This document shows positions 5,077 through 59,241 of a stretch of 64,000 nt of DNA, in pieces. The stretch spans positions 201,631-265,630 of the forward strand of contig DOZJ01000006.1 of the NCBI GenBank assembly GCA_003518055.1. The letters are read 5' to 3'. The position numbers and the translations under genes are program-made. This stretch comes from Candidatus Falkowbacteria bacterium (lineage in GTDB: Bacteria; Patescibacteriota; Patescibacteriia; UBA11705). Below the pieces are notes generated by a model. That model was not told the DNA's origin. It ran no database searches and saw only the letters and a list, made by a program, of their open reading frames with translations. Positions within the stretch are counted from its first letter, which is position 1, and the number at the start of each line of letters is the position of its first letter.

Positions 5077-5143
5077 GGGGTGTTTGGAGAACAACGATTT
5101 TTGCGATGAAGGCGAATTTTGAAACAGGGTGGAGGTTTCTTCG

Positions 5144-5313
5144 TTTGACAGTTGACGGAGGCTGTCACGCCTGCCTGCCGGCAGGCAGGGCGCTACTTCG
5201 TACGCCTCGCAGCAAGAAAGAGAGGATTTTTTGCGAGGAAGGTACGACGAAGCAAACTACGATTGGCTGCTAATGGAGGCTGCTGCGTCGGTACTGCGTA
5301 CTCCTCGCAGCAA
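5144..5313. repeat. repeat family R1 (two units plus spacer; the first unit carries the R2 palindrome) upstream of the GIY-YIG gene
   Basis: Consensus unit TTGACAGCTAA(T/C)GGAGGCTGC(C/T)GCGTCGTTACTGCGTACTCCTCGCAGCAA. Units lie at 5144-5216 and 5265-5313, joined by the spacer TTTGCGAGGA(A)GGTACGACGAAGCAAACTACGA. Confidence 0.8.
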
Positions 5314-5326
5314 CAAACGTTTATCT

Positions 5327-5647
5327 ATGGGAGGGTTTGTATATATAATAACAAATAAATATAACACAGCTTTGTATGTAGGATCGGCAACTGATCTGCT
5401 GTTTAGAATTCAACAGCATAAGAACAAGGCATATAAGAGTTCATTTTCGGCTAGATATAATATTTCAAAATTGGTTTATTTTGAATGTTTTAATAGCAGA
5501 TATGAGGCATATCAACGAGAATATCAAATAAAGTCAGGATCAAGGGCTAAAAAGATTGCGTTAATAATAAAAGCGAATCCAGATTTTGATGATCTTTATG
5601 ATGATATTGTTTTAAATGGGATTGAAAAAAGTATATATAATAAATAG
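5327..5647 (+). CDS. GIY-YIG nuclease superfamily protein (YhbQ/UPF0213-like, ~106 aa)
   Basis: GFVYIITNKYNTALYVGSATDLLFRIQQH matches the GIY-YIG core of the short stand-alone family. The ATG at 5327 was chosen because the upstream part of the listed ORF is repeat sequence. Confidence 0.7.
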   Translation: MGGFVYIITNKYNTALYVGSATDLLFRIQQHKNKAYKSSFSARYNISKLVYFECFNSRYEAYQREYQIKSGSRAKKIALIIKANPDFDDLYDDIVLNGIEKSIYNK

Positions 5648-5686
5648 TGTAGCGTGAATTACGGAGCTGGTTGGAGACTGCTAAGA

Positions 5687-5922
5687 TTGACAGCTAATGG
5701 AGGCTGCTTCGTCGTAACTGGGTTGATGTGGAGTTCGAAACCGGGTGGAGCTGCTACATCTGTCAGCTAACGGAGGCTGCCACGGCGTTACTGCGTACGC
5801 CTCGCAGCAAAAGAAAGAGATGATATTTGCGAGGAGGTACGACGAAGCAAACTACGAACAAGCTGCCGTGTTTGCCTACTGATGGAGGCTGCTTCGTCGT
5901 TACTACGTACTCCTCGCAGCAA
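5687..5922. repeat. repeat family R1 (three units plus spacer) downstream of the GIY-YIG gene
   Basis: Units at 5687-5720 (truncated), 5758-5810 and 5876-5922. The same spacer as upstream lies at 5826-5857. Confidence 0.8.
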
Positions 5923-5948
5923 TAAAAAGGGGTTATGTTCAAAATAAT

Positions 5949-8940: not shown

Positions 8941-8997
8941 TTATCGTGAGGTGGTTGGTGGAGGCTCATTCATCTGTCGGTTAATGAGGCTGCCGCG

Positions 8998-9048
8998 CTT
9001 GACAGCTAATGGAGGCTGTCGCGTCGTTACTGCGTACTCCTCGCAGCG
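8998..9048. repeat. repeat family R1, solo unit (a degenerate partial unit lies at 8951-8997)
   Basis: CTTGACAGCTAATGGAGGCTGTCGCGTCGTTACTGCGTACTCCTCGCAGCGA. Confidence 0.8.
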
Positions 9049-9124
9049 AGGGAAAGGGATGATTTTTACATAGTTTTTATTTTGGTATATAATATGGATG
9101 TAAAAGATAAATAATTGGAAATTT

Positions 9125-16609: not shown

Positions 16610-16654
16610 GTCATCGATAGATAATTCGGAATGGAATCGGTAGATGTTGCTTCG

Positions 16655-16706
16655 TTTGACAGCTAACGGAGGCTGCCGCGTCGTTACTGCGTACTCCTCG
16701 CAGCAA
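16655..16706. repeat. repeat family R1, solo unit between ftsI and murF
   Basis: TTTGACAGCTAACGGAGGCTGCCGCGTCGTTACTGCGTACTCCTCGCAGCAA. Confidence 0.8.
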
Positions 16707-16774
16707 TAAAAGTTTAATGTCGGGAGTTGAAATTCTTGTGAAATTGATATATAATGAATATTATTCATTGAAAA

Positions 16775-18497: not shown

Positions 18498-18572
18498 GCC
18501 TCCATCGTCTAGCGGTTAGGACATCGCCTTCTCACGGCGGAAACCGGGGTTCGATTCCCCGTGGAGGTACCA
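18498..18572 (+). tRNA. tRNA-Glu (anticodon CUC)
   Basis: 75-nt cloverleaf with acceptor GCCTCCA/TGGAGGT, a CTC anticodon in the loop cTTCTCAc, a GGTTCGATTCC T-arm and an encoded CCA end. Preceded by a TTGACG-N17-TAGAAT promoter at ~18446-18475. Confidence 0.85.
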
Positions 18573-18592: not shown

Positions 18593-18690
18593 GAGCTTCG
18601 GCTGGCACGGCCAGTACTATAGCTTTTTAAATGAGCTTCGGCTGGCACGGCCAGTACTATAGCTTTTTAAATGAGCTTCGGCTGGCGAGC
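18593..18690 (+). repeat. 40-bp tandem repeat x2.5 (GAGCTTCGGCTGGCACGGCCAGTACTATAGCTTTTTAAAT) immediately 3' of tRNA-Glu
   Basis: Two perfect copies and one partial copy. Each unit contains a CTGGC-acg-GCCAG hairpin followed by a T-run. Confidence 0.85.
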
Positions 18691-18883: not shown

Positions 18884-19429
18884 CTAGAGGTGGAAGTCGG
18901 TGCAGATGATGGATTCGAGCATGTTGTAGGAGTCGTCCCATTCGGGATGCTCGGGGTCGTGGCAGCGGAGGTCGGGCAGGTCGTCGGCGAAGGTGCCTTG
19001 GGTGACGGTGCCGGCGGGAACGGTGCGTCTGGTGCGGATGGCGACCGTGAGCTCGGCCACGGTCTGCAGCGCGATGATGTCGGGGTGGGTCGGGTCTCCG
19101 GTTTCGCGCAGGATCTCGATGGCGCGTCGGGCGTGATTCGGGCCGTAGTAGAAGTTGTACTGGCCCGTCTCGATCTTCCCGTGCTTCTTCACGTCGCCGA
19201 AGTCGATCACGAAGCGCTTGCCGCCGGCCCAGTCGATGTAGAAGCGGCTGGTGGCGTGTTCGAGCAGAATGGCGAGCGCCCCCACGTCGTCGATGATGTT
19301 GGGGGTGGGGTCGGCGGCGCTGACGCCGAACTTGACGCCGGCGTTGTACAGAGCCGCCAGAATATCTTCCTCGACGAGTCCTTGAACGTCCACGATGCTG
19401 TCGTGGGTGCAGGTGCGATCGAATGGCAT
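18884..19429 (-). CDS. hypothetical protein encoded in GC-rich island A (181 aa)
   Basis: Body ~65% GC against ~40% in the flanks. AAGGAGGAGG RBS and the shared TTGACT-N17-TATAAT promoter immediately upstream, with a terminator downstream. The overlapping plus-strand ORF is regarded as a GC artefact. Confidence 0.55.
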   Translation of the reverse strand: MPFDRTCTHDSIVDVQGLVEEDILAALYNAGVKFGVSAADPTPNIIDDVGALAILLEHATSRFYIDWAGGKRFVIDFGDVKKHGKIETGQYNFYYGPNHARRAIEILRETGDPTHPDIIALQTVAELTVAIRTRRTVPAGTVTQGTFADDLPDLRCHDPEHPEWDDSYNMLESIICTDFHL

Positions 19430-19490: not shown

Positions 19491-19519
19491 ATTATATCAT
19501 ATATTTATCAAAAAGTCAA
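19491..19519 (-). promoter_or_regulatory. shared promoter module, copy A (TTGACTTTTT-N-TATGATATAAT)
   Basis: Minus-strand -35 TTGACT and -10 TATAAT with a 17-nt spacer. A near-identical 35-nt module recurs at 50097-50128 and 55685-55716. Confidence 0.7.
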
Positions 19520-19753
19520 TAGGCTGGGGGGCGGTTATTGTTTAAACGATATGAGCAGCCTTTATTTGGCTTAAAATGGACGATATTTGTCCTTGGTGGA
19601 ATTGTGTATTATTAATGAACCATGAAGAGCATTTTTTTTGTTGTGAAAAAAAGGAATATTGGGTATAATTTATGGCAGAAGTATAATTGACGTCGGAGAA
19701 ATAAAGCTTAAAAGGATTATAAAAAATAAGTTTATAAATTTAATTTTAATTAT

Positions 19754-49067: not shown

Positions 49068-49622
49068 TTAGTAGCGGAATGCTTCATCTTCGAGTGGGAG
49101 GCCGAGCGCGGAGCCCAGCCGGTGAAGGCCGAGCCAGATCAGGGCGATGAGGCTCACGACGTAGCCGATGGCCATGAACGGCCAGACGAACGACATCAGA
49201 CCGATGTACGTGCCGCGTTCGCCGACGATGTTGGTCCCGAAGGATAGCTTTTCCGGGATTTCGACATCGTTAATGTTGCTATCTCGGTCGAGAAACGCTG
49301 GCAGGAGTGACGGGAACAGGATGAAGTGGTACCAGCGGATGTGGTCGAGCCGGAAGAAGATCCGGCTGACATCCCTGCTGGGAAGCTTGTAATGCCCCAA
49401 GAGAGTCAGTCTGAACTGGTATCCTTTGTTGGCCTCGTGCCACCGGATCCAGCCGTAGATCAGGCCGAATGCGAAGTAGCCGAGCGGAATCATGACGAAC
49501 CAAGTCCACAGGAACGCGTGAGCGGCTTCCATGTATTTCTCTTTCCGGTCAGCATTGGCTGACTGAATTGACGTTGTTTGAGCTTCAGGCACGCTCGAAG
49601 GACAGGTTTTCTTGGCCGTCAT
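49068..49622 (-). CDS. membrane protein encoded in GC-rich island B, distal gene (real start probably MEAAHAF… near 49532)
   Basis: ~62-65% GC with 3-4 TM helices. Lies downstream of and slightly overlapping the 145-aa ORF. The listed start overlaps the upstream gene. Confidence 0.45.
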   Translation of the reverse strand: MTAKKTCPSSVPEAQTTSIQSANADRKEKYMEAAHAFLWTWFVMIPLGYFAFGLIYGWIRWHEANKGYQFRLTLLGHYKLPSRDVSRIFFRLDHIRWYHFILFPSLLPAFLDRDSNINDVEIPEKLSFGTNIVGERGTYIGLMSFVWPFMAIGYVVSLIALIWLGLHRLGSALGLPLEDEAFRY

Positions 49623-50022
49623 CGTCGATGTAGTAGTTGAATACTTCTCCGTTGTATTCGGCTTTGAGCGCTCGGGCGAAGTAGATTCGGGTGGCGGACT
49701 GTTCGATGTATATGGTGATGTAGAACGTCGATCCTGACGGGAAGCTGATCGAGGCTAGGATATGCCAGTCCCAGCCGGCGCCGTTGTGGAATTCCTTCAG
49801 ATCAGGATTGAAGAGAGTGGTGGCGACCGGATTGCCGAAGTTGGCCTGGAGAATTGCGGCATATGCGTTCAGCACGGCGATCGTTTTGAGATCGATACGT
49901 GTCAGTGTCAGCTTCGTGCCGGATTTACGGCACTTGTCCGAGATGCTCCTTGAGACAAATCCGGGCAGCGTCGGATCGATACCCAGAAACAGCCGAGCCA
50001 TGTCACGACCATGAGCGTTCAT
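49585..50022 (-). CDS. hypothetical protein encoded in GC-rich island B, proximal gene (145 aa)
   Basis: ~65% GC. GGGAGGGAAACC RBS, a structured 5' UTR and shared promoter module copy B immediately upstream. Confidence 0.5.
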   Translation of the reverse strand: MNAHGRDMARLFLGIDPTLPGFVSRSISDKCRKSGTKLTLTRIDLKTIAVLNAYAAILQANFGNPVATTLFNPDLKEFHNGAGWDWHILASISFPSGSTFYITIYIEQSATRIYFARALKAEYNGEVFNYYIDDDGQENLSFERA

Positions 50023-50096: not shown

Positions 50097-50128
50097 ATTA
50101 TATCATACTTTGAATAAAAAGTCAATAG
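50097..50128 (-). promoter_or_regulatory. shared promoter module, copy B (TTGACTTTTTATTCAAAGTATGATATAAT)
   Basis: Minus-strand TTGACT-N17-TATAAT, near-identical to copies A and C. Confidence 0.7.
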
Positions 50129-54358: not shown

Positions 54359-54484
54359 AGTTTTACAAAAATTTGTTAGTCGGTTACTGGTTTCTGATTT
54401 GTTTTTACAAAAGTATAACAGTAACTGCGAAAGTTTGGCTGCGTGTGATTGGTTTTTACTCGTCCTATGGCGGACAAAAATTTG

Positions 54485-55372
54485 TTAGTCAGCTACTGAT
54501 TTCAGATCTTTGTTTACTGTTAACTGTAATCTTTTGTGGGACAGAATATAAAACTTTTTATCGATTTCAAAACCAATATATTTTCGGTTCAGTTTTTTGG
54601 CCACGGCAGCCGTTGTTCCTGAGCCGAGAAATGGGTCAAGAATAATATCACCTGTATTTGATGATGCCATGATTAAACGTTCAATGAGTTTTTCCGGTTT
54701 TTGGGTTGGGTGTTCGGTATTTTCCGGCATGGACCAAAAGGGGACGATTAAATCTGTCCAAATGTTTGAGGGATGAGTATAGCGAAATTTTTGGCCGTTT
54801 TCTTCAAACCAGTCTTTGGGCCGGCCGAGCGAGTCGATATACGGTGCTTTGACCGCGCGTTTTTCTTTGACGGCGTCGAGATTGAAGGTGTACTCAGGAC
54901 TTTTGGTGGCAAACCAGATGTCTTCCATGTTGTTTTTCCAGTTGGATTTTGAACCGCGGCCTTTGTCGCGTTTCCAGGTAATACGGTTTTGGATAATCAA
55001 ATATTTTTCCAAGATGTTTTGAAACAAACATGAGCTGGGCCAGTCAATACATAGATACAAACTGCCGGTTGGTTTTAAAATTCGGCTTGATTGTTCAATC
55101 CAAGCCAGGTTCCAATTGTAGTATTCGTTTTTGCTCAAATTGACATTGCCGGCGCCAAAATTTTTACGCAGATTAAAATATGGTGGGTCGGCAATGATTA
55201 AATCAACGGATTCTGATGGAAGTTTTTTTAGCGCGATGATGGAATTTTCCAGATAAATTTTATTTTGGAGAGTCGTTATGTTTTTAATTTCATCAGGTAA
55301 ACGCAAAAAATGACTGAAAGATTTCAGGTCAAGATCAGAAACTGATAAGGTTTTATTTCTTGATGACGGCAT
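54485..55372 (-). CDS. DNA methyltransferase (N6-adenine/N4-cytosine, beta class; orphan in this window)
   Basis: 295 aa with motif IV IIADPPYFNL preceding motif I ILDPFLGSGTTAAVA (PF01555-like order). No adjacent restriction endonuclease is recognisable. Confidence 0.8.
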   Translation of the reverse strand: MPSSRNKTLSVSDLDLKSFSHFLRLPDEIKNITTLQNKIYLENSIIALKKLPSESVDLIIADPPYFNLRKNFGAGNVNLSKNEYYNWNLAWIEQSSRILKPTGSLYLCIDWPSSCLFQNILEKYLIIQNRITWKRDKGRGSKSNWKNNMEDIWFATKSPEYTFNLDAVKEKRAVKAPYIDSLGRPKDWFEENGQKFRYTHPSNIWTDLIVPFWSMPENTEHPTQKPEKLIERLIMASSNTGDIILDPFLGSGTTAAVAKKLNRKYIGFEIDKKFYILSHKRLQLTVNKDLKSVAD

Positions 55373-55439
55373 TAGAATGTAGGTAACGGTTTCAAATCAT
55401 CGCGTGTGATATAAAATAGTATAGCAGATGAATTGATTT

Positions 55440-55684
55440 TTAAAAGGTTATTTAAAATATTAAACCGCCGGGCGCTTGCGCTCGGCGGTGTCGAACTGGT
55501 TTGAATTGTAGGCTCTTGCGGCCCCATAACCGTTGAAAGAGCGGATCTCTTCGGCTCGGGGTGGTTGGCTCGCAAGGGGCAGTTTGCCCGCGCCCATGAT
55601 CACTGCTCCATTCCTTGTTTCGGGTCATTTCACGTATCGTGAATCTCCTAGAGCTGCGCCGTTGCAGCTCATATGGGCATATAT
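55440..55684 (-). promoter_or_regulatory. GC-rich (~63%) structured leader/small-RNA-like segment between shared promoter copy C and the methyltransferase gene
   Basis: Contains perfect hairpins GAGCTGCaacggcGCAGCTC and TTCACGataCGTGAA, and ends in CCGCCGagcgcaagcgccCGGCGG plus TTTAATATTTT, which is terminator-like. It could encode a 45-aa peptide (MGAGKLPLASQ…) instead. Confidence 0.35.
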
Positions 55685-55716
55685 ATTATATCATGTTTGT
55701 ATAAAAAGTCAATAGG
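55685..55716 (-). promoter_or_regulatory. shared promoter module, copy C (TTGACTTTTTATACAAACATGATATAAT)
   Basis: Near-identical to copies A and B. Oriented toward the GC-rich leader and the methyltransferase. Confidence 0.7.
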
Positions 55717-55837
55717 AATTACAATTATTATGAAAAAAAGGCTAAAATATGTGTGTCTGTACGCTTTTGAGATTCAAATTGTTGACATGTTTGATAAATT
55801 GTGATAATATTTAAAGTCTCAAACAAGGAGGAGACAC

Positions 55838-56578
55838 ATGGAACACATGGATCGGTTGCGAGCGTTTGAAAATGGATTAACGCGATTTTTCCATGGTGTT
55901 TCAAATTTGAGGGCGAGTGTCTCAGCGCAGAGTTTTACTTTTAACATGAAAAAGCCTAACGGCTGTTTGGTATTGCAATATAATCAGCGTTTGGTTGATT
56001 ATTTGCTTGAGCAGTTTGGCACCGCCAAGATGTTGATTTCAATTTCAAGCGTCAGTAGTGTTGGTCTAGTGGGATTGAGCTCACAAGTATTTCCAATGCG
56101 TGATAATTGCGGAATTATGGGGCAGGTTGAACTTCGGGATGCAGACGTGTCGCAAATTTTGGGCACAGAGTTGCCGCCGGCTAGGAATCTGAAGCTGATT
56201 GAGATTTATGAAAGACTCGCATCAGTCGAACATGTTTTCGCGACTGCCACACTGGATTTGGCTAGAGCAAAGGATTCCACGCGGGTAGCGAGTGGATGGA
56301 GAGCCTCGGAAATTAATCAGGAACTGAACGTGGTGTTGTGTCCTGAGCTCTTGGAGTCAGTCCGTCAATTCGGGTATTCCAGGTTGGAGCTGGAATTTGA
56401 TCCAAGCGTTGAGCGTACTGATGCCGATCCTATGTGGGCAGATTATAATTTCTGGGTTAAGTATCAATACGTGGCGTTGCATAAATTAAAAGTAGGTAAA
56501 TCACCTTCTTTTTTATTGGTAATATTGACAAATGCTATTATGCAATGTACAGTGATACATTCAAATCTGTTTTGTTGA
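55838..56578 (+). CDS. hypothetical protein (246 aa)
   Basis: TTGACA-N17-TAATAT promoter and an AAGGAGG RBS. GC ~48%. Confidence 0.45.
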   Translation: MEHMDRLRAFENGLTRFFHGVSNLRASVSAQSFTFNMKKPNGCLVLQYNQRLVDYLLEQFGTAKMLISISSVSSVGLVGLSSQVFPMRDNCGIMGQVELRDADVSQILGTELPPARNLKLIEIYERLASVEHVFATATLDLARAKDSTRVASGWRASEINQELNVVLCPELLESVRQFGYSRLELEFDPSVERTDADPMWADYNFWVKYQYVALHKLKVGKSPSFLLVILTNAIMQCTVIHSNLFC

Positions 56579-56601
56579 ACTAACCACCAAGGAGGGGATA
56601 G

Positions 56602-57048
56602 GTGGCAGCTAAAAAGATCGAAACATTTGAAGAATTGTGTTCTTTGCCAATTGGTACTCTGATTTTGAATATGAGAATCAACTCTATATTTCATCCGGCG
56701 AGTACAAAGCCGTGTGTCGGGGTAACGATGATTGTGGATCAGGCAAGATATGATCGCGTTTCGAATAAAGGCGGTGGGTATGTGTTTACAGGTATTGCCG
56801 ATAAAAAGTTTTTCAGAGCGTTGTATTTATCAGATGAGGCGCAAAAAGAAATGGCGGATGATATTAACGCGGAAACTTTTAGTGAATGTGAATTGTATGT
56901 ATTGGGTCCTGAAGCTTTGGCGGATTTTTGGCTTCATTATTGTCAGCAGGCGGAAGATTTTATTGAAATGCAAAGTCGTGTAAGCGAAAAAGTCAAGCAG
57001 GCGAAATATACCACGTTTCAGAGATTGCGTGAAAGATCCGGATCATAA
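56602..57048 (+). CDS. hypothetical protein (148 aa)
   Basis: AAGGAGGGG RBS. Co-oriented with, and immediately after, 55838-56578. Confidence 0.45.
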   Translation: MAAKKIETFEELCSLPIGTLILNMRINSIFHPASTKPCVGVTMIVDQARYDRVSNKGGGYVFTGIADKKFFRALYLSDEAQKEMADDINAETFSECELYVLGPEALADFWLHYCQQAEDFIEMQSRVSEKVKQAKYTTFQRLRERSGS

Positions 57049-57139
57049 ATTCGGTCAAAAAAGGTCAGTTACATAGAGTCTAACAAGGCTCTTTTATGTT
57101 TTTATAATCAAAAAATGCTGGTGTTACAGCATTTAATAA

Positions 57140-57361
57140 TCAGCCGCGGCGTTTTTGATTGTGCCGGATGGCTTTCGAATCACCATGTCTTTTCCCGTAA
57201 AAGCGTTTGGCTCGGCCCTTGTGACCATCAGAGTCTCGGCTCGCAGGCAGCGGAAGCACCGAGTGTGGTTCGCTTCGCAAATGAGTAAATAGAAAGCTTG
57301 GAAGACGCTTGATCTTGTCAATGGTTCGACGGAAGAAATGGGCAAGGCTTGCTCGAATCAT
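57140..57361 (-). CDS. small basic protein, hypothetical (73 aa)
   Basis: A GGAGG RBS 6 nt upstream, 12 nt after the stop of 57374-57892. Terminator hairpin at 57114-57133. Confidence 0.35.
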   Translation of the reverse strand: MIRASLAHFFRRTIDKIKRLPSFLFTHLRSEPHSVLPLPASRDSDGHKGRAKRFYGKRHGDSKAIRHNQKRRG

Positions 57362-57373
57362 CGGCCGCCTCCA

Positions 57374-57892
57374 TTACCATGTTTTGTTGGCCGCGATTTT
57401 TTCGGCGAATCTGGGATGATTCTTGTCATACCCCAGACAGTTAATTACCCATTGCTCCAGCAGAAAATCAACTTGAAGGCGATCGACAACGGCTTTGAGC
57501 GTATCCGTGTGCCGTTCGAAATTAAAGTGCAGTCCAGCCTTCAAGTGAGGCTCAAGAAATTCGCGATAACAGGCGGTCAATTTGCAGAACCAACTGATGA
57601 TAAGGTTAGTATCGATGGTGACGTTGACCGGTTTGGTTTTCGGCCAGTGGCTTTCAATATGCCGGTTCATTCCCACAATTCCGAATTCAACCAAGCGATC
57701 CATCAAGTCGTAAAGAAAATGATTAGGCGTCAGATCTGGGAAATTGGCCACGAGACTTTGCAGTCTTTTCTGGATGTCTGTCCACGTGAAAATAACGAGA
57801 GGCCTTTCACCTTCAAGTTCAGATCGGTGGTTTTCCAGAAGCGCGGAGAAATCTTCGGCGGCGATAATAAAGTCGCGCGGGAGTGGCTTCAT
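57374..57892 (-). CDS. hypothetical protein (172 aa)
   Basis: AGGAG RBS. Part of a minus-strand operon running 59241 to 57140. Confidence 0.45.
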   Translation of the reverse strand: MKPLPRDFIIAAEDFSALLENHRSELEGERPLVIFTWTDIQKRLQSLVANFPDLTPNHFLYDLMDRLVEFGIVGMNRHIESHWPKTKPVNVTIDTNLIISWFCKLTACYREFLEPHLKAGLHFNFERHTDTLKAVVDRLQVDFLLEQWVINCLGYDKNHPRFAEKIAANKTW

Positions 57893-57918
57893 GATGTGTT
57901 CTCCTAGCTGTCGGGGTG

Positions 57919-58431
57919 TTAATTGTGAATAAATGTATGAATTTTTTTTACCGTATCAAGCCGGTTCAGCTTACACTTGGCAATATAAATCAAAACATTT
58001 AACACGTCTAGCCAGAGCCAGCTGATCAGCCAAAAGGTAATGATAAGGTTTCGAAATTGTTCCGTTGAATCCGGTGCGCCACGAGTCATAGCCGGCGCCA
58101 GATAAAGCGCTATCAGGACGATAATGAAAGATATAATGCTTACTAATTCTGCAATCGGCGGGTTATTCAGTTTCGTGACCATGAATATTTTGACCACAGC
58201 GGAAAAACTCATGAAATTTGCCAGCGCCCAGCTAGCGATCAATACTTCAGTTGAAAATTGAGACGGGTTATATTTTGGTTCGTATTCAACCATATAAAGG
58301 AAGAGCATACCAATCGTACCAATTATGAGCATGTATATACCGGTGGTGCGTTTGTAGGTGTCAAGTTTCAGGAGAAATAAACCAAGAGCATTTAACAGCT
58401 CGTTGAGGCTGCGTCGAAGCGTGGTCAGCAT
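57919..58431 (-). CDS. hypothetical membrane protein (170 aa, ~4 TM helices)
   Basis: ORF with multiple hydrophobic helices, in an operon with the flanking hypothetical genes. Confidence 0.45.
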   Translation of the reverse strand: MLTTLRRSLNELLNALGLFLLKLDTYKRTTGIYMLIIGTIGMLFLYMVEYEPKYNPSQFSTEVLIASWALANFMSFSAVVKIFMVTKLNNPPIAELVSIISFIIVLIALYLAPAMTRGAPDSTEQFRNLIITFWLISWLWLDVLNVLIYIAKCKLNRLDTVKKIHTFIHN

Positions 58432-58494
58432 GTGATGGTCTCCTTTGTCGGTGAAGTTAAAATTTGACTCGCATTCAGTTCAGCTAGGCGGGAT

Positions 58495-58755
58495 CTATTT
58501 TGTCAGACCAAACGCTTTGGCCAGTTCCTCCGCTTTGTCTCTGACAGCAGCATGAAACGCCAAACAATCTTCTTGATAGCTGGAATCAGGATCACAATAG
58601 TCAAGATCAATTCCGAGTGATCGGACTTGAATCGCGACGCAATCATCATCACCGAGAAGAATCTCATATTTCGTTTCCCAATCAGCGGTTGATTCCATAA
58701 TATTCGCAGTGGTGATGGCGAGTTCAAGAAAGGAGATCAATTTTTTTTCGGTCAT
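58495..58755 (-). CDS. hypothetical acidic protein (86 aa)
   Basis: ORF only, in the operon. Confidence 0.35.
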   Translation of the reverse strand: MTEKKLISFLELAITTANIMESTADWETKYEILLGDDDCVAIQVRSLGIDLDYCDPDSSYQEDCLAFHAAVRDKAEELAKAFGLTK

Positions 58756-58815
58756 TGATTCCTCACTTCGGCCGTTGAAGTTGTTGCGAATAGTTGTCAG
58801 CAGGTGAATGCCGCT

Positions 58816-59241
58816 TTAGACTTTGGTGTTAAGAACTTGAACCAGATCTCGATAATTCACCTGAACCAACACCGTCTCACCCTCATAATCAAACCGGCAA
58901 CATCCGGTAAGATCGATAATGTTTTCAATTTTTGATCGCTCAAAAACAGTTAGAAATCGACTCACGTAATAATCCGGCGAGTTGAAGTACTGGCGCAGCG
59001 CGACGAAGTCAGGATTGGCCACCAGCCATAGACAAAGGTCAGCCGGAGTTTCGGTGAATGATTGATTTACTCGTTGGTTATTGGGGTCAAATTCATCATC
59101 CATAATATACGGTCCGGTATGCTCAATGGTAGTATTTCCGGCGGCATCTTCGGAGATATTTTTGATATCATCAACAGCAAAAAGCCATGGGAGTTCTTCG
59201 CCTTGGCCGGCATAGATTTCCAGAATGATTTTGTGGCTCAT
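58816..59241 (-). CDS. hypothetical protein (141 aa)
   Basis: First gene of the minus-strand operon, divergent from rsmI. Confidence 0.4.
   Translation of the reverse strand: MSHKIILEIYAGQGEELPWLFAVDDIKNISEDAAGNTTIEHTGPYIMDDEFDPNNQRVNQSFTETPADLCLWLVANPDFVALRQYFNSPDYYVSRFLTVFERSKIENIIDLTGCCRFDYEGETVLVQVNYRDLVQVLNTKV

What the first reader, a model, noticed from the sequence alone, without database searches (positions are those of the whole stretch)
55373..55720. Orphan DNA methyltransferase preceded by promoter module copy C and a ~220-nt GC-rich structured leader ending in a terminator-like hairpin
The same TTGACT…TATAAT module points at a 63% GC segment containing perfect hairpins (GAGCTGC-aacggc-GCAGCTC and TTCACG-ata-CGTGAA), then CCGCCG…CGGCGG plus TTTAATATTTT immediately upstream of the beta-class MTase gene (54485-55372). 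This could be an attenuator or riboregulator controlling the MTase. It could be a small RNA in its own right, or a 45-aa peptide gene (MGAGKLPLASQPPRAEEIRSFNGYGAARAYNSNQFDTAERKRPAV with a plausible AAGGAATGGAG SD). The MTase has no recognisable cognate endonuclease nearby. Two ~41-bp direct repeats (54366-54406 and 54472-54513) bracket its 3' end.
Basis: seen in the sequence. Interest (0 to 1): 0.6.

Follow-up and report, generated by a model that had tools for sequence, protein, structure and literature searches.

The report
Unclassified structured small RNA gene
A GC-rich RNA of about 220 nt, with its own strong promoter and terminator, sits in front of a conserved orphan DNA methyltransferase in a groundwater Falkowbacteria (candidate phyla radiation) genome. 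It folds into a three-way junction conserved in four species and matches no known RNA family. It looks like an independent small RNA, not a control leader or a peptide gene.

Summary
On the minus strand there is a near-consensus promoter (55712-55685), a 58% GC segment of about 220 nt between 26% GC flanks, two perfect 5' hairpins and a terminator hairpin with a U-tract. A beta-class N6/N4 DNA methyltransferase gene (54485-55372) follows.

- **Homologues.** They exist in three other Falkowbacteria species. All four fold independently into the same three-way junction (3WJ), with many compensatory changes. So it is a real structured RNA.
- **Not a leader.** The methyltransferase (MTase) has its own conserved extended -10 promoter. 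In most relatives this lies 6 nt before the ATG, which implies a leaderless mRNA. In one species another RNA and an opposite-strand gene lie between the RNA and the MTase. Six of 19 distinct MTase loci carry no RNA there.
- **Not a 45-aa peptide gene.** The ORF is 45, 10, 13 and 5 codons in the four species. However, the Shine-Dalgarno (SD) motif and AUG at the foot of the junction are conserved.
- **No known family.** Rfam gave no match and I found no description in the literature.

Best reading: a stand-alone small RNA of a new family, function unknown, probably engaging ribosomes.

At the same genomic spot, other Patescibacteria carry RNAs with tandem mini-ORFs encoding x-SGF-x peptides. 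That is the more striking lead.

The parts
55685..55712 (-). Promoter of the RNA: -35 TTGACT, 16-nt spacer, extended -10 TG-a-TATAAT. Inferred transcription start near 55678-55680.
   Evidence: 11 of 12 matches, TG present. Equivalent TTGACA-17-TGnTATAAT promoters precede the homologues in L088, L095 and L096. Copy of a promoter module also at 19491-19522 and 50097-50128 (D14 and D19).
55460..55680 (-). Inferred transcript of about 220 nt, 58% GC between 26% GC flanks.
   Evidence: The ends are inferred from the promoter and terminator, not measured.
55651..55670 (-). 5' hairpin 1 (GAGCUGC / GCAGCUC, 7 bp).
   Evidence: A 5'-proximal hairpin of unrelated sequence sits at the same place in F (ACCGG / CCGGU), L095 (GUAUGGUCC / GGACCAUAC) and L096a (weak, AUAG / CUAU).
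55629..55643 (-). Hairpin 2 (UUCACG-AUA-CGUGAA).
   Evidence: A counterpart is seen only in L095 (GUCUU-GGA-AGAC), so it is not a family-wide feature.
55617..55626 (-). Conserved single-stranded block GACCCGAAAC (family consensus YCGAAA).
   Evidence: C5 G6 A7 A8 are invariant in the four sequences. The same YCGAAM motif precedes the SD of mini-ORFs in L131 and L135.
55595..55616 (-). Translation-initiation-like region: AAGGA-AUGGAG (SD-like), 8 nt, AUG (55597-55595).
   Evidence: AAGGAGG(UGA) followed 6-7 nt later by AUG is conserved in F, L095 and L096a, although the register of the closing helix relative to the AUG shifts.
55509..55596 (-). Three-way junction core. Closing helix Pc: 55596-55592 with 55513-55509. 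Short hairpin Pa: 55589-55577. Long hairpin Pb: 55576-55515.
   Evidence: It is the MFE structure of each of the four cores folded alone, z = -2.4 to -4.2. On the hand alignment A7, 84 of 84 cells pair and 14 of 28 pairs change on both sides, against at most 2 when the partner is slid. That alignment was fitted by me.
55499..55509 (-). Conserved A/C-rich single-stranded tail ACAAUUCAAAC, directly 3' of the junction.
   Evidence: ACAA invariant. Predicted mostly unpaired.
55454..55488 (-). Intrinsic-terminator-like hairpin (CCGCCG-a-GCG-caag-CGC-c-CGGCGG) plus UUUAAUAUUUU.
   Evidence: Each homologue ends in a different GC-rich hairpin plus U-tract.
55418..55426 (-). Extended -10 promoter of the MTase (TGCTATACT), within a 17-nt block AATTYATCTGCTATACT identical in W and F.
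   Evidence: TGnTAYAMT lies 6 nt before the MTase ATG in L095, L111, L126, L128, L131, L135 and L147, and 9 nt before it in L096. In this window a 45-nt spacer without an SD follows.
54485..55372 (-). Orphan beta-class N6-adenine/N4-cytosine DNA methyltransferase, 295 aa, YhdJ-like.
   Evidence: PF01555 at E = 9e-48. Best NCBIfam model is PRK11524, adenine-specific, below its cut-off. Closest solved structures are 8urk, M.MboIIA and M.RsrI. About 60-80% identical across Patescibacteria in conserved synteny.
54365..54517 (-). Two 44-nt direct repeats (54365-54408 and 54474-54517), a 109-bp tandem duplication of the MTase 3' end and spacer.
   Evidence: D17, 84% identity. In L088 the MTase-rdgB spacer is 64 nt, against 127 nt here.

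Best explanation
The segment is a stand-alone gene for a structured RNA of about 220 nt.

**Shown**
- A near-consensus promoter starts it and a hairpin plus U-tract ends it.
- The MTase downstream has its own promoter.
- The RNA consists of a 5' hairpin, a single-stranded YCGAAAC block, an SD-like motif and AUG at the 5' foot of a 3WJ, an A/C-rich tail (ACAAUUCAAAC) at its 3' foot, and the terminator.
- This architecture is kept in four Falkowbacteria species by compensatory changes. The ORF behind the AUG is not kept.

**Inferred mechanism**
- The RNA itself is the product, not a peptide.
- The conserved SD-AUG and the A/C-rich tail, brought together by the junction, form an initiation-site-like platform.
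- 30S subunits bind there. A few codons of a meaningless ORF may be translated.
- The RNA would then act as a ribosome-engaging regulatory RNA or a degenerate mini-ORF RNA.
- It occupies the position that tandem SD-led mini-ORF RNAs occupy in other Patescibacteria.

Its target and physiological role remain unknown.
For: - **Transcription unit.** Promoter matches 11 of 12 positions with an extended -10. The terminator hairpin forms in the MFE fold. GC is 58% against 26% in the flanks, in the top 0.9% of windows.
- **Homologues.** They carry the same promoter type, a 5' hairpin, the core and a terminator: L088 (MTase 81% identical), L095 (68%) and L096 (61%).
- **Structure conserved without sequence.** BLAST and nhmmer do not link W and F.
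- **Same fold in all four.** All four cores fold alone into the same 3WJ, z = -2.4 to -4.2.
- **Covariation.** 14 of 28 pairs change on both sides, 100% of cells pair, 0 of 500 shuffles reach this, and slid controls give at most 2.
- **Independence from the MTase.** A conserved TGnTAYAMT promoter lies between terminator and MTase. L096a is separated from the MTase by another RNA and an opposite-strand gene.
- **SD-AUG selected as such.** The AUG is retained 6-8 nt after GGAG(G) in all four, although the closing helix starts at AUG position +3, +4 or +5 in different species.
- **Positional equivalence.** In L096 this RNA type precedes 'RNA b', exactly where L115, L131 and L135 carry SGF mini-ORF arrays.
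Against: - There are no expression data. Transcript ends and abundance are inferred from sequence only.
- Only four species-level members exist, and the alignment used for pair counts was fitted by hand to the structure.
- The covariance model R2 found no further member in 693 kb of related Patescibacteria loci, so the family is narrow.
- Predicted ensembles leave the SD and AUG partly paired in W, F and L095, with mean unpaired probability 0.37-0.48. This argues against efficient initiation.
- The SD in this window is the weakest of the four (GGAG, 8-nt spacing).
- In three of the four species the RNA is directly upstream of the MTase and co-oriented with it. The U-tracts are interrupted, so read-through into the MTase cannot be excluded.
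Confidence: 0.55

Rival explanations
1. Classical trans-acting base-pairing sRNA. The 3WJ is only a scaffold. The single-stranded tail (ACAAUUCAAAC) or the YCGAAAC block is a seed that pairs with mRNAs elsewhere in the genome. The SD-like G-rich run is structural or pairs with C-rich targets.
For: - The unit runs from its own promoter to a terminator.
- The conserved blocks are predicted to be single-stranded.
- The ORF is not conserved.
Against: - A purely structural G-run would not keep an AUG at SD spacing while the helix register shifts.
- No target was found. Pairing with the MTase 5' region is no better than with shuffled targets.
- Only 64 kb of the genome was available for any target search.
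Confidence: 0.2
2. Cis-acting leader or attenuator of the MTase. Transcription from the strong promoter stops at the hairpin unless some signal, or translation of the short ORF, lets it read through into the MTase.
For: - The RNA is co-oriented with the MTase and directly upstream of it in W, F and L095.
- The U-tracts are interrupted.
- In this window the 45-codon ORF ends inside the terminator U-tract, so a translating ribosome could melt the hairpin.
- In W and F the MTase has lost the leaderless arrangement. The spacer after the -10 is 45 nt in W and about 130 nt in F, with no SD.
Against: - The MTase has its own conserved promoter.
- L096a is not adjacent to the MTase.
- Six of 19 distinct MTase loci have no RNA.
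- The ORF stops 110 nt before the terminator in F, and similarly early in L095 and L096a.
- No alternative antiterminator pairing was found, and no junction nucleotides are conserved.
- No Rfam riboswitch or leader matches.
Confidence: 0.12
3. Small-protein gene: the 45-aa ORF (MGAGKLPLAS...) or another short ORF is the functional product.
For: - The SD-AUG is conserved. The first three codons are MGA in W, F and L096a, with synonymous differences (GGC/GGG, GCG/GCA).
- Promoter-module copies A and B in the window drive GC-rich protein genes with the same layout of two hairpins, an SD and an ATG.
Against: - ORF length is 45, 10, 13 and 5 codons.
- No peptide similarity exists beyond MGA in any frame.
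- Indels of 4, 5 and 2 nt lie inside the ORF between W and F.
- The substitutions are compensatory for helices, not synonymous.
- Pfam gives no hit.
Confidence: 0.05
4. Decaying relic without function, for example the remnant of a mini-ORF array or of a GC-rich cargo gene, in a hotspot prone to small duplications.
For: - The spot between RsmI and the MTase is hypervariable. It holds ORFan genes, different RNAs, or nothing.
- Local tandem duplications occur in W (D17) and in F.
Against: Compensatory maintenance of three helices, the promoter and the terminator across species whose MTases are only 61-81% identical is not expected of a relic.
Confidence: 0.08

Closest known systems
Dual-function or mini-ORF-bearing bacterial sRNAs (SgrS/SgrT, RNAIII/hld, SR1/SR1P), from my own knowledge
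   Same: A short, strongly transcribed RNA ending in an intrinsic terminator. It is highly structured and also carries an SD, an AUG and a short ORF.
   Different: In those RNAs the peptide is conserved and functional. Here the ORF is 5 to 45 codons with no conserved sequence. There is no sequence or structural homology (Rfam negative), and no target is known.
Three-way-junction regulatory RNAs overlapping a start site (purine-riboswitch-type 'tuning fork'; the rpsO/S15 leader of Geobacillus, which mimics a 16S rRNA three-way junction), from my own knowledge
   Same: A closing helix plus two hairpins of about 70-90 nt, placed at a translation start.
   Different: - Here the SD-AUG lies 5' of the junction and the ORF runs through it.
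- Junction and loop nucleotides are not conserved.
- No regulated gene follows.
- No Rfam model matches.
Transcription-attenuation leaders with leader peptides (trp, phe, pyrBI, erm)
   Same: A short SD-led ORF followed by hairpins and a terminator, upstream of a co-oriented gene.
   Different: - There is no alternative antiterminator.
- The leader peptide is not conserved.
- The downstream gene has its own promoter and is not always adjacent.
- The only Rfam hint was a Phe_leader match at E = 3.6 and 18.5 bits against a 55-bit threshold, in a relative (L115). That is chance level.
Orphan beta-class DNA adenine methyltransferases (E. coli YhdJ; CcrM)
   Same: - PF01555 domain with DPPY before FxGxG.
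- Best NCBIfam model is PRK11524 (YhdJ-type); the CcrM model also matches.
- No partner nuclease, and conserved as a core syntenic gene.
   Different: - Scores are below both equivalog cut-offs (167 against 292; 116 against 830).
- It lacks the CcrM C-terminal domain.
- The target sequence is unknown.

Membership tests
Any Rfam 15 family (riboswitches, leaders, 6S, SRP, RNase P, tmRNA, known sRNAs) | Covariance-model score at or above the family's gathering threshold | tested here: not met
   - Whole window at gathering thresholds: only tRNA-Glu.
- 55350-55800 at E up to 10: five chance-level hits, all far below threshold.
- Relatives also negative. ARAGORN found no tmRNA.
Independent sRNA gene | Own promoter and own intrinsic terminator bounding a non-coding segment | tested here: met
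   By sequence only. The same bounding elements occur in three other species. Transcription itself cannot be tested here.
Independent sRNA gene | Conserved secondary structure supported by compensatory substitutions | tested here: met
   Caveats: four sequences only, and the alignment for one search was fitted by hand. One search is alignment-free.
Independent sRNA gene | Detected transcript of discrete size | not testable with these tools
   No RNA-seq or RACE data were available.
Cis-regulatory leader or riboswitch of the MTase | Lies in the 5' UTR of the regulated gene with no intervening promoter | tested here: not met
   A conserved extended -10 lies between terminator and MTase, 6 nt before the ATG in most relatives.
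Cis-regulatory leader or riboswitch of the MTase | Consistent association with the regulated gene family | tested here: not met
   - This RNA type was found at 4 of 19 distinct MTase loci examined.
- Six loci have no RNA and nine carry other RNA types.
- L096a is not adjacent to the MTase.
Cis-regulatory leader or riboswitch of the MTase | Mutually exclusive terminator and antiterminator, or a conserved ligand pocket | tested here: not met
   About 20 nt of unpaired tail separate the junction from the terminator. Junction strands vary in length and sequence.
Small-protein gene | ORF conserved in length, frame and sequence | tested here: not met
   45, 10, 13 and 5 codons, with frame-breaking indels.
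Type I toxin-antitoxin mRNA | Conserved small hydrophobic ORF plus an antisense or overlapping RNA | tested here: not met
   The ORF is hydrophilic and not conserved. No promoter-like site on the opposite strand reads into the segment.
Type II restriction-modification system | Cognate endonuclease gene adjacent to the MTase | tested here: not met
   - The neighbours are rdgB (PF01725) and six ORFans with no hit in Pfam, PADLOC, NCBIfam or PHROGs.
- The 246-aa neighbour has no homologue among 5.8 billion proteins.
- Neighbours differ between species while the MTase is kept.
- An unrecognisable nuclease among the ORFans cannot be formally excluded.
Beta-class N6-adenine/N4-cytosine DNA MTase (PF01555) | PF01555 domain above threshold, with motif IV (DPPY) N-terminal to motif I (FxGxG) | tested here: met
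   163.6 bits against a 26.7-bit cut-off. D62-P-P-Y65 and F248-x-G-x-G252 are invariant in 25 homologues.

The most novel reading that the evidence does not exclude
The RNA may be one form of a Patescibacteria-wide, so far undescribed locus between rsmI and a core orphan DNA methyltransferase.

- The locus encodes abundant, terminator-bounded RNAs whose conserved feature is a very strong SD plus start codon.
- In at least six other genomes these RNAs carry two to four tandem mini-ORFs of 7-10 codons encoding M-x-[FYH]-[TP]-S-G-F-x. Serine codons switch between TCN and AGY, which points to selection on the peptide.
- On this reading the window's RNA is a ribosome-engaging regulatory RNA, or a peptide-less derivative of a new class of directly encoded hepta- or octapeptide genes. 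Those peptides could be signals, or arrest or regulatory peptides.
Probability: 0.2. Interest if true: 0.75.

Novelty: new member of a known kind. Interest (0 to 1): 0.45.

Why it matters
- **An unexplored area.** Almost nothing is known about non-coding RNAs in candidate phyla radiation bacteria. They are uncultivated, have tiny genomes and lack many standard regulators.
- **A concrete candidate.** This is a new RNA family there, with exact coordinates, a structural model and four members. It can be tested directly in existing groundwater metatranscriptomes.
- **Corrected annotation.** Gene callers annotate a 45- or 47-aa protein here, or extend the MTase N-terminus over the homologous RNA (a 330-aa call in L095). 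Both are probably wrong.
- **Leaderless MTase.** The comparison shows that this widely conserved orphan methyltransferase is typically expressed as a leaderless mRNA.
- **A hotspot worth study.** The rsmI-MTase spot carries unannotated RNAs, including tandem SGF mini-ORF arrays that deserve a study of their own.

Tried and rejected
1. **Rfam.** Whole window at gathering thresholds, the local region at E up to 10, and 17 related loci. Nothing credible.
2. **Genome-contig scan with a 25-sequence MTase alignment.** That scan was wasted.
3. **Viral contigs pattern scan** (GGGCGCGGG...GCCCC...ATGGGGC). Twelve hits, all judged chance matches: eleven in phage contigs of 57-70% GC and one (L106, 49% GC) showing no other block of the RNA.
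4. **BLASTN and nhmmer** with W or F against all loci. They do not even find each other.
5. **Covariance models.** R1 (W+F) and R2 (four sequences) recover only their training sequences in about 700 kb of Patescibacteria loci. Gaps had to be written as N to impose my alignment, which degrades the models.
6. **Regex and helix descriptor scans.** No new members, but they exposed other RNAs.
7. **Known housekeeping RNAs.** 6S, SRP, RNase P and tmRNA were considered and rejected. There is no 5'/3' closing rod, no domain IV motif, no P4 motif, no tRNA-like end and no Rfam or ARAGORN hit.
8. **Retron, guide RNA and DGR.** Rejected: no reverse-transcriptase or effector gene among the neighbours and no second copy of the segment in the window.
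9. **Pairing of the RNA with the MTase 5' region.** Not better than with shuffled targets.
10. **CsrA-sponge idea.** GGA motifs sit in hairpin loops in L095 but not in W, so I dropped it.
11. **Nucleotide homology between this RNA and the SGF arrays.** Not significant by BLAST. Only the shared position and short motifs link them.
12. **Literature searches.** Nothing relevant on Patescibacteria ncRNAs or mini-ORFs. One possibly relevant 2026 preprint is not held.
Full report
**Source and setting**

The window comes from a Candidatus Falkowbacteria (Patescibacteria, candidate phyla radiation) genome assembled from groundwater. The MTase protein is identical to an NCBI entry of that name. The same DNA occurs on a 173-kb JGI contig and on several ENA and Logan contigs. 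The window averages 42% GC. The finding lies on the minus strand.

**Checking the observation**

- **Promoter.** TTGACT, 16 nt, TG-a-TATAAT at 55712-55685, matching 11 of 12 positions with an extended -10. It is one copy of a promoter module also found at 19491-19522 and 50097-50128 (D14 and D19).
- **Hairpins.** Two perfect hairpins lie downstream, at 55670-55651 and 55643-55629.
- **Terminator.** CCGCCG-a-GCG-caag-CGC-c-CGGCGG plus UUUAAUAUUUU lies at 55488-55454.
- **Composition.** The segment between promoter and terminator is 58% GC, not 63%. Its flanks are 26% GC. Only 0.9% of 220-nt windows reach this level.
- **Fold.** It folds better than all 200 dinucleotide shuffles, z = -3.2.
- **MTase.** The downstream gene is a PF01555 DNA methyltransferase with the beta-class motif order.
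- **ORF and repeats.** The 45-aa ORF exists. The two 44-nt direct repeats at the MTase 3' end exist (D17). They are a 109-bp tandem duplication of the gene's last codons and the spacer before rdgB.

**Is it a known RNA?**

No. Rfam 15 finds only a tRNA in the whole window at gathering thresholds. It finds nothing credible locally at E up to 10. ARAGORN finds no tmRNA. Related loci are equally negative. Literature searches returned nothing on such an RNA.

**Relatives**

I collected loci through MTase homologues. A metagenome scan seeded with the nearby translin-like gene added 80 loci.

The MTase is a core syntenic gene. The order is MetRS, RsmI, a variable stretch, MTase, then translin, YceG and an NTP-transferase. 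The MTases are about 60-80% identical to the one in the window. One homologue (P0037) is even fused to RdgB.

Homologues of the RNA were found in three other species:
- L088/L089/L090/L110, called F here (MTase 81% identical);
- L095/L112 (68%);
- L096/L097, called L096a here (61%).

Each has a TTGACA-17-TGnTATAAT promoter and a 5' hairpin of unrelated sequence. Each has a YCGAAA block, then AAGGAGG(UGA) with an AUG 6-7 nt later. A structured core, an (A)ACAA... tail and a GC-rich hairpin with a U-tract follow. Sequence similarity is so low that BLASTN and nhmmer do not connect W and F.

**Structure**

Each of the four cores, folded alone, gives the same three-way junction as its minimum-free-energy structure. 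A closing helix (Pc) starts at or just after the AUG. A short hairpin (Pa) and a long hairpin (Pb) follow. The z-scores are -2.4, -4.2, -3.5 and -2.8.

I aligned the four by hand, writing gaps as N so that MAFFT kept the register.
- All 84 comparable cells form standard pairs.
- 14 of 28 pairs change on both sides.
- No shuffle out of 500 reaches this.
- Sliding the 3' partners by 1-3 columns drops pairing to 32-48% and double changes to 0-2.

That alignment was fitted to the structure, so it is biased. The alignment-free result is the independent support.

Window coordinates are Pc 55596-55592 with 55513-55509, Pa 55589-55577 and Pb 55576-55515. Junction strands and loops are not conserved. 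The conserved nucleotides lie in the single-stranded flanks: YCGAAAC, the SD-AUG and the ACAA tail.

**Not a leader of the MTase**

- A 17-nt block containing TGCTATACT is identical in W and F, directly after the terminator.
- The same extended -10 lies 6 nt before the MTase ATG in L095, L111, L126, L128, L131, L135 and L147, and 9 nt before it in L096. The MTase is therefore normally a leaderless mRNA with its own promoter.
- W and F have secondarily acquired spacers of 45 and about 130 nt. In F the spacer includes a decayed duplicate of the promoter and of the first MTase codons.
- In L096 the RNA is about 800 nt from the MTase, with a second RNA and an opposite-strand gene in between.
- Six MTase loci (L091, L094, L111, L128, L190, L192) have no RNA.
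- There is no antiterminator.
- The RNA does not pair with the MTase 5' region better than with shuffled targets.
- Read-through remains possible, because the U-tracts are interrupted.

**Not a 45-aa protein**

The ORF behind the conserved AUG is 45, 10, 13 and 5 codons long in the four species. No frame shows peptide conservation beyond M-G-A. Indels of 4, 5 and 2 nt break the frame between W and F.

The AUG itself is retained at SD spacing even though the closing helix begins at different offsets from it. This suggests that the initiation site, not the product, is under selection. Predicted ensembles leave it partly paired.

**Orphan status of the MTase**

- On one side the neighbour is rdgB.
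- On the other side lie six ORFan genes (55838-59241) with no match in Pfam, PADLOC, NCBIfam or PHROGs.
- The adjacent 246-aa protein has no homologue among 5.8 billion proteins.
- These neighbours are absent from relatives that keep the MTase.
- The best named relatives are YhdJ-type (PRK11524) and CcrM, both below their cut-offs. The closest solved structures are 8urk, M.MboIIA and M.RsrI.
- A PF13366 PD-(D/E)XK gene lies 4.8 kb away. It is not linked to the MTase in relatives.

**The hotspot**

The stretch between rsmI and the MTase is a hotspot for unannotated RNAs.
- In L115, L126, L131, L135, L138 and L193 it holds promoter- and terminator-bounded RNAs. They carry two to four SD-led mini-ORFs of 7-10 codons.
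- The encoded peptides include MRFTSGFA, MKFTSGFL, MRYTSGFP, MYTSGFD, MFTSGFL, MPYTSGFL, MHTSGFV, MHTTGFT, MRRCSSGFL, MSRRYPSGFT, MYLSGFT, MKHLSGFL, MRRYSVGFK, MVTPSGFT and MNHFTSGFS.
- Serine is encoded by both TCN and AGY codons, and Thr, Gly and Phe codons vary. Selection therefore acts on the peptide.
- Most of these ORFs stop at UAG.
- In L096, L115, L131 and L135 this 'RNA a' is followed by a second RNA of about 300-400 nt, 'RNA b'. It ends in GCCGGUGCAUUUUU in L096, L115 and L131, and in the variant GCCGGUCCAUUUUU in L135.
- In L096, RNA a is the 3WJ type. The window's RNA is thus the positional equivalent of the mini-ORF arrays. It shares their YCGAAM-SD-start motif, although nucleotide homology is not significant.
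- L147, L194 and L195 carry yet other structured RNAs at the same spot.

**Verdict**

The segment is a real, conserved, structured RNA gene of a family not in Rfam. It is independent of the MTase and does not code for a protein. The transcription-unit features and the structure are shown by comparative sequence analysis. Expression and function are inferred.

My preferred mechanism is a ribosome-engaging or mini-ORF-type regulatory RNA. A conventional base-pairing sRNA is the main rival.

I rate it as a new member of a known kind (bacterial small RNAs) and of moderate interest. The SGF mini-ORF arrays found in passing may be the more novel lead.

Noticed in passing
L126:5300-5700(-), L131:9930-10400(-), L135:9270-9870(-), L115:9640-10150(-), L138:7480-7930(-), L193:1200-1900(+): Promoter- and terminator-bounded RNAs between rsmI and the MTase, or near translin, in at least six Patescibacteria genomes. 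They carry 2-4 tandem SD-led mini-ORFs of 7-10 codons encoding M-x-[FYH]-[TP]-S-G-F-x-stop. Serine codons switch between TCN and AGY, which indicates peptide-level selection. Most stops are UAG. No Rfam or literature match.
   Followed up: partly
L096:2266-2560(+), L131:9560-9880(-), L135:8960-9210(-), L115:9150-9570(-): A second conserved RNA ('RNA b', about 300-400 nt) with its own promoter, directly after the mini-ORF or 3WJ RNA. It ends in GCCGGUGCAUUUUU (GCCGGUCCAUUUUU in L135). In L096, L115 and L131 that end can pair with an internal GCACCG. It is not in Rfam and is absent from the window.
   Followed up: partly
window 18884-19429(-), 49585-50022(-) and 49068-49532(-): The other two copies of the promoter module (19491-19522 and 50097-50128) drive unusually GC-rich protein genes in a 42% GC genome: 150-nt windows peak at 0.72 GC for 18884-19429 and at 0.57-0.66 for the two genes near 49.0-50.0 kb. 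The genes have strong SDs and no Pfam match. They look like foreign or ORFan cargo under a shared promoter.
   Followed up: partly
window 55838-59241: Six consecutive ORFan genes (246, 148, 172, 170, 86 and 141 aa) between the RNA and rsmI, with no hit in Pfam, PADLOC, NCBIfam or PHROGs. The 246-aa protein has no homologue at all. Two long ORFs overlap on opposite strands at 57338-57907 and 57374-57892. The block is absent from relatives, so it is a hypervariable island.
   Followed up: partly
L095:974-1966; L005:934-1071; L088:330-473: Gene callers mis-annotate the RNA. In L095 the MTase is extended to 330 aa over the RNA; the true start is at 1113. Elsewhere spurious 45- or 47-aa genes are called on the RNA.
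   Followed up: yes
MTase starts in L095, L111, L126, L128, L131, L135, L147: The conserved Patescibacteria MTase has an extended -10 (TGnTAYAMT) exactly 6 nt before its ATG, so it appears to be a leaderless mRNA. W and F have lost this through small insertions or duplications. P0037 is an RdgB-MTase fusion protein.
   Followed up: partly
window 5128-5940, 8982-9067, 16639-16724: A family of GC-rich, REP-like intergenic repeats of 45-80 nt (...TTGACAGCTAAYGGAGGCTGC...GTACTCCTCGCAGCAA), with 5-6 copies and internal dyad symmetry (D2-D6).
   Followed up: no
window 18593-18672: Two exact tandem copies of a 40-nt unit (GAGCTTCGGCTGGCACGGCCAGTACTATAGCTTTTTAAAT) directly after tRNA-Glu (18498-18572), plus a partial third copy. 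Each contains a hairpin followed by a T-run.
   Followed up: no
L091:7558-9727: Two radical-SAM/SPASM genes lie next to translin in one relative that lacks the RNA. I noted them because such enzymes often mature small peptides. No link to the SGF mini-ORFs was established.
   Followed up: no
L195:2200-2460(+), L147:6360-6600(-), L194:1100-1340(+): Further, mutually dissimilar, promoter- and terminator-bounded structured RNAs at the same rsmI-MTase position. None is in Rfam for L147 and L194. L195 was not scanned.
   Followed up: no
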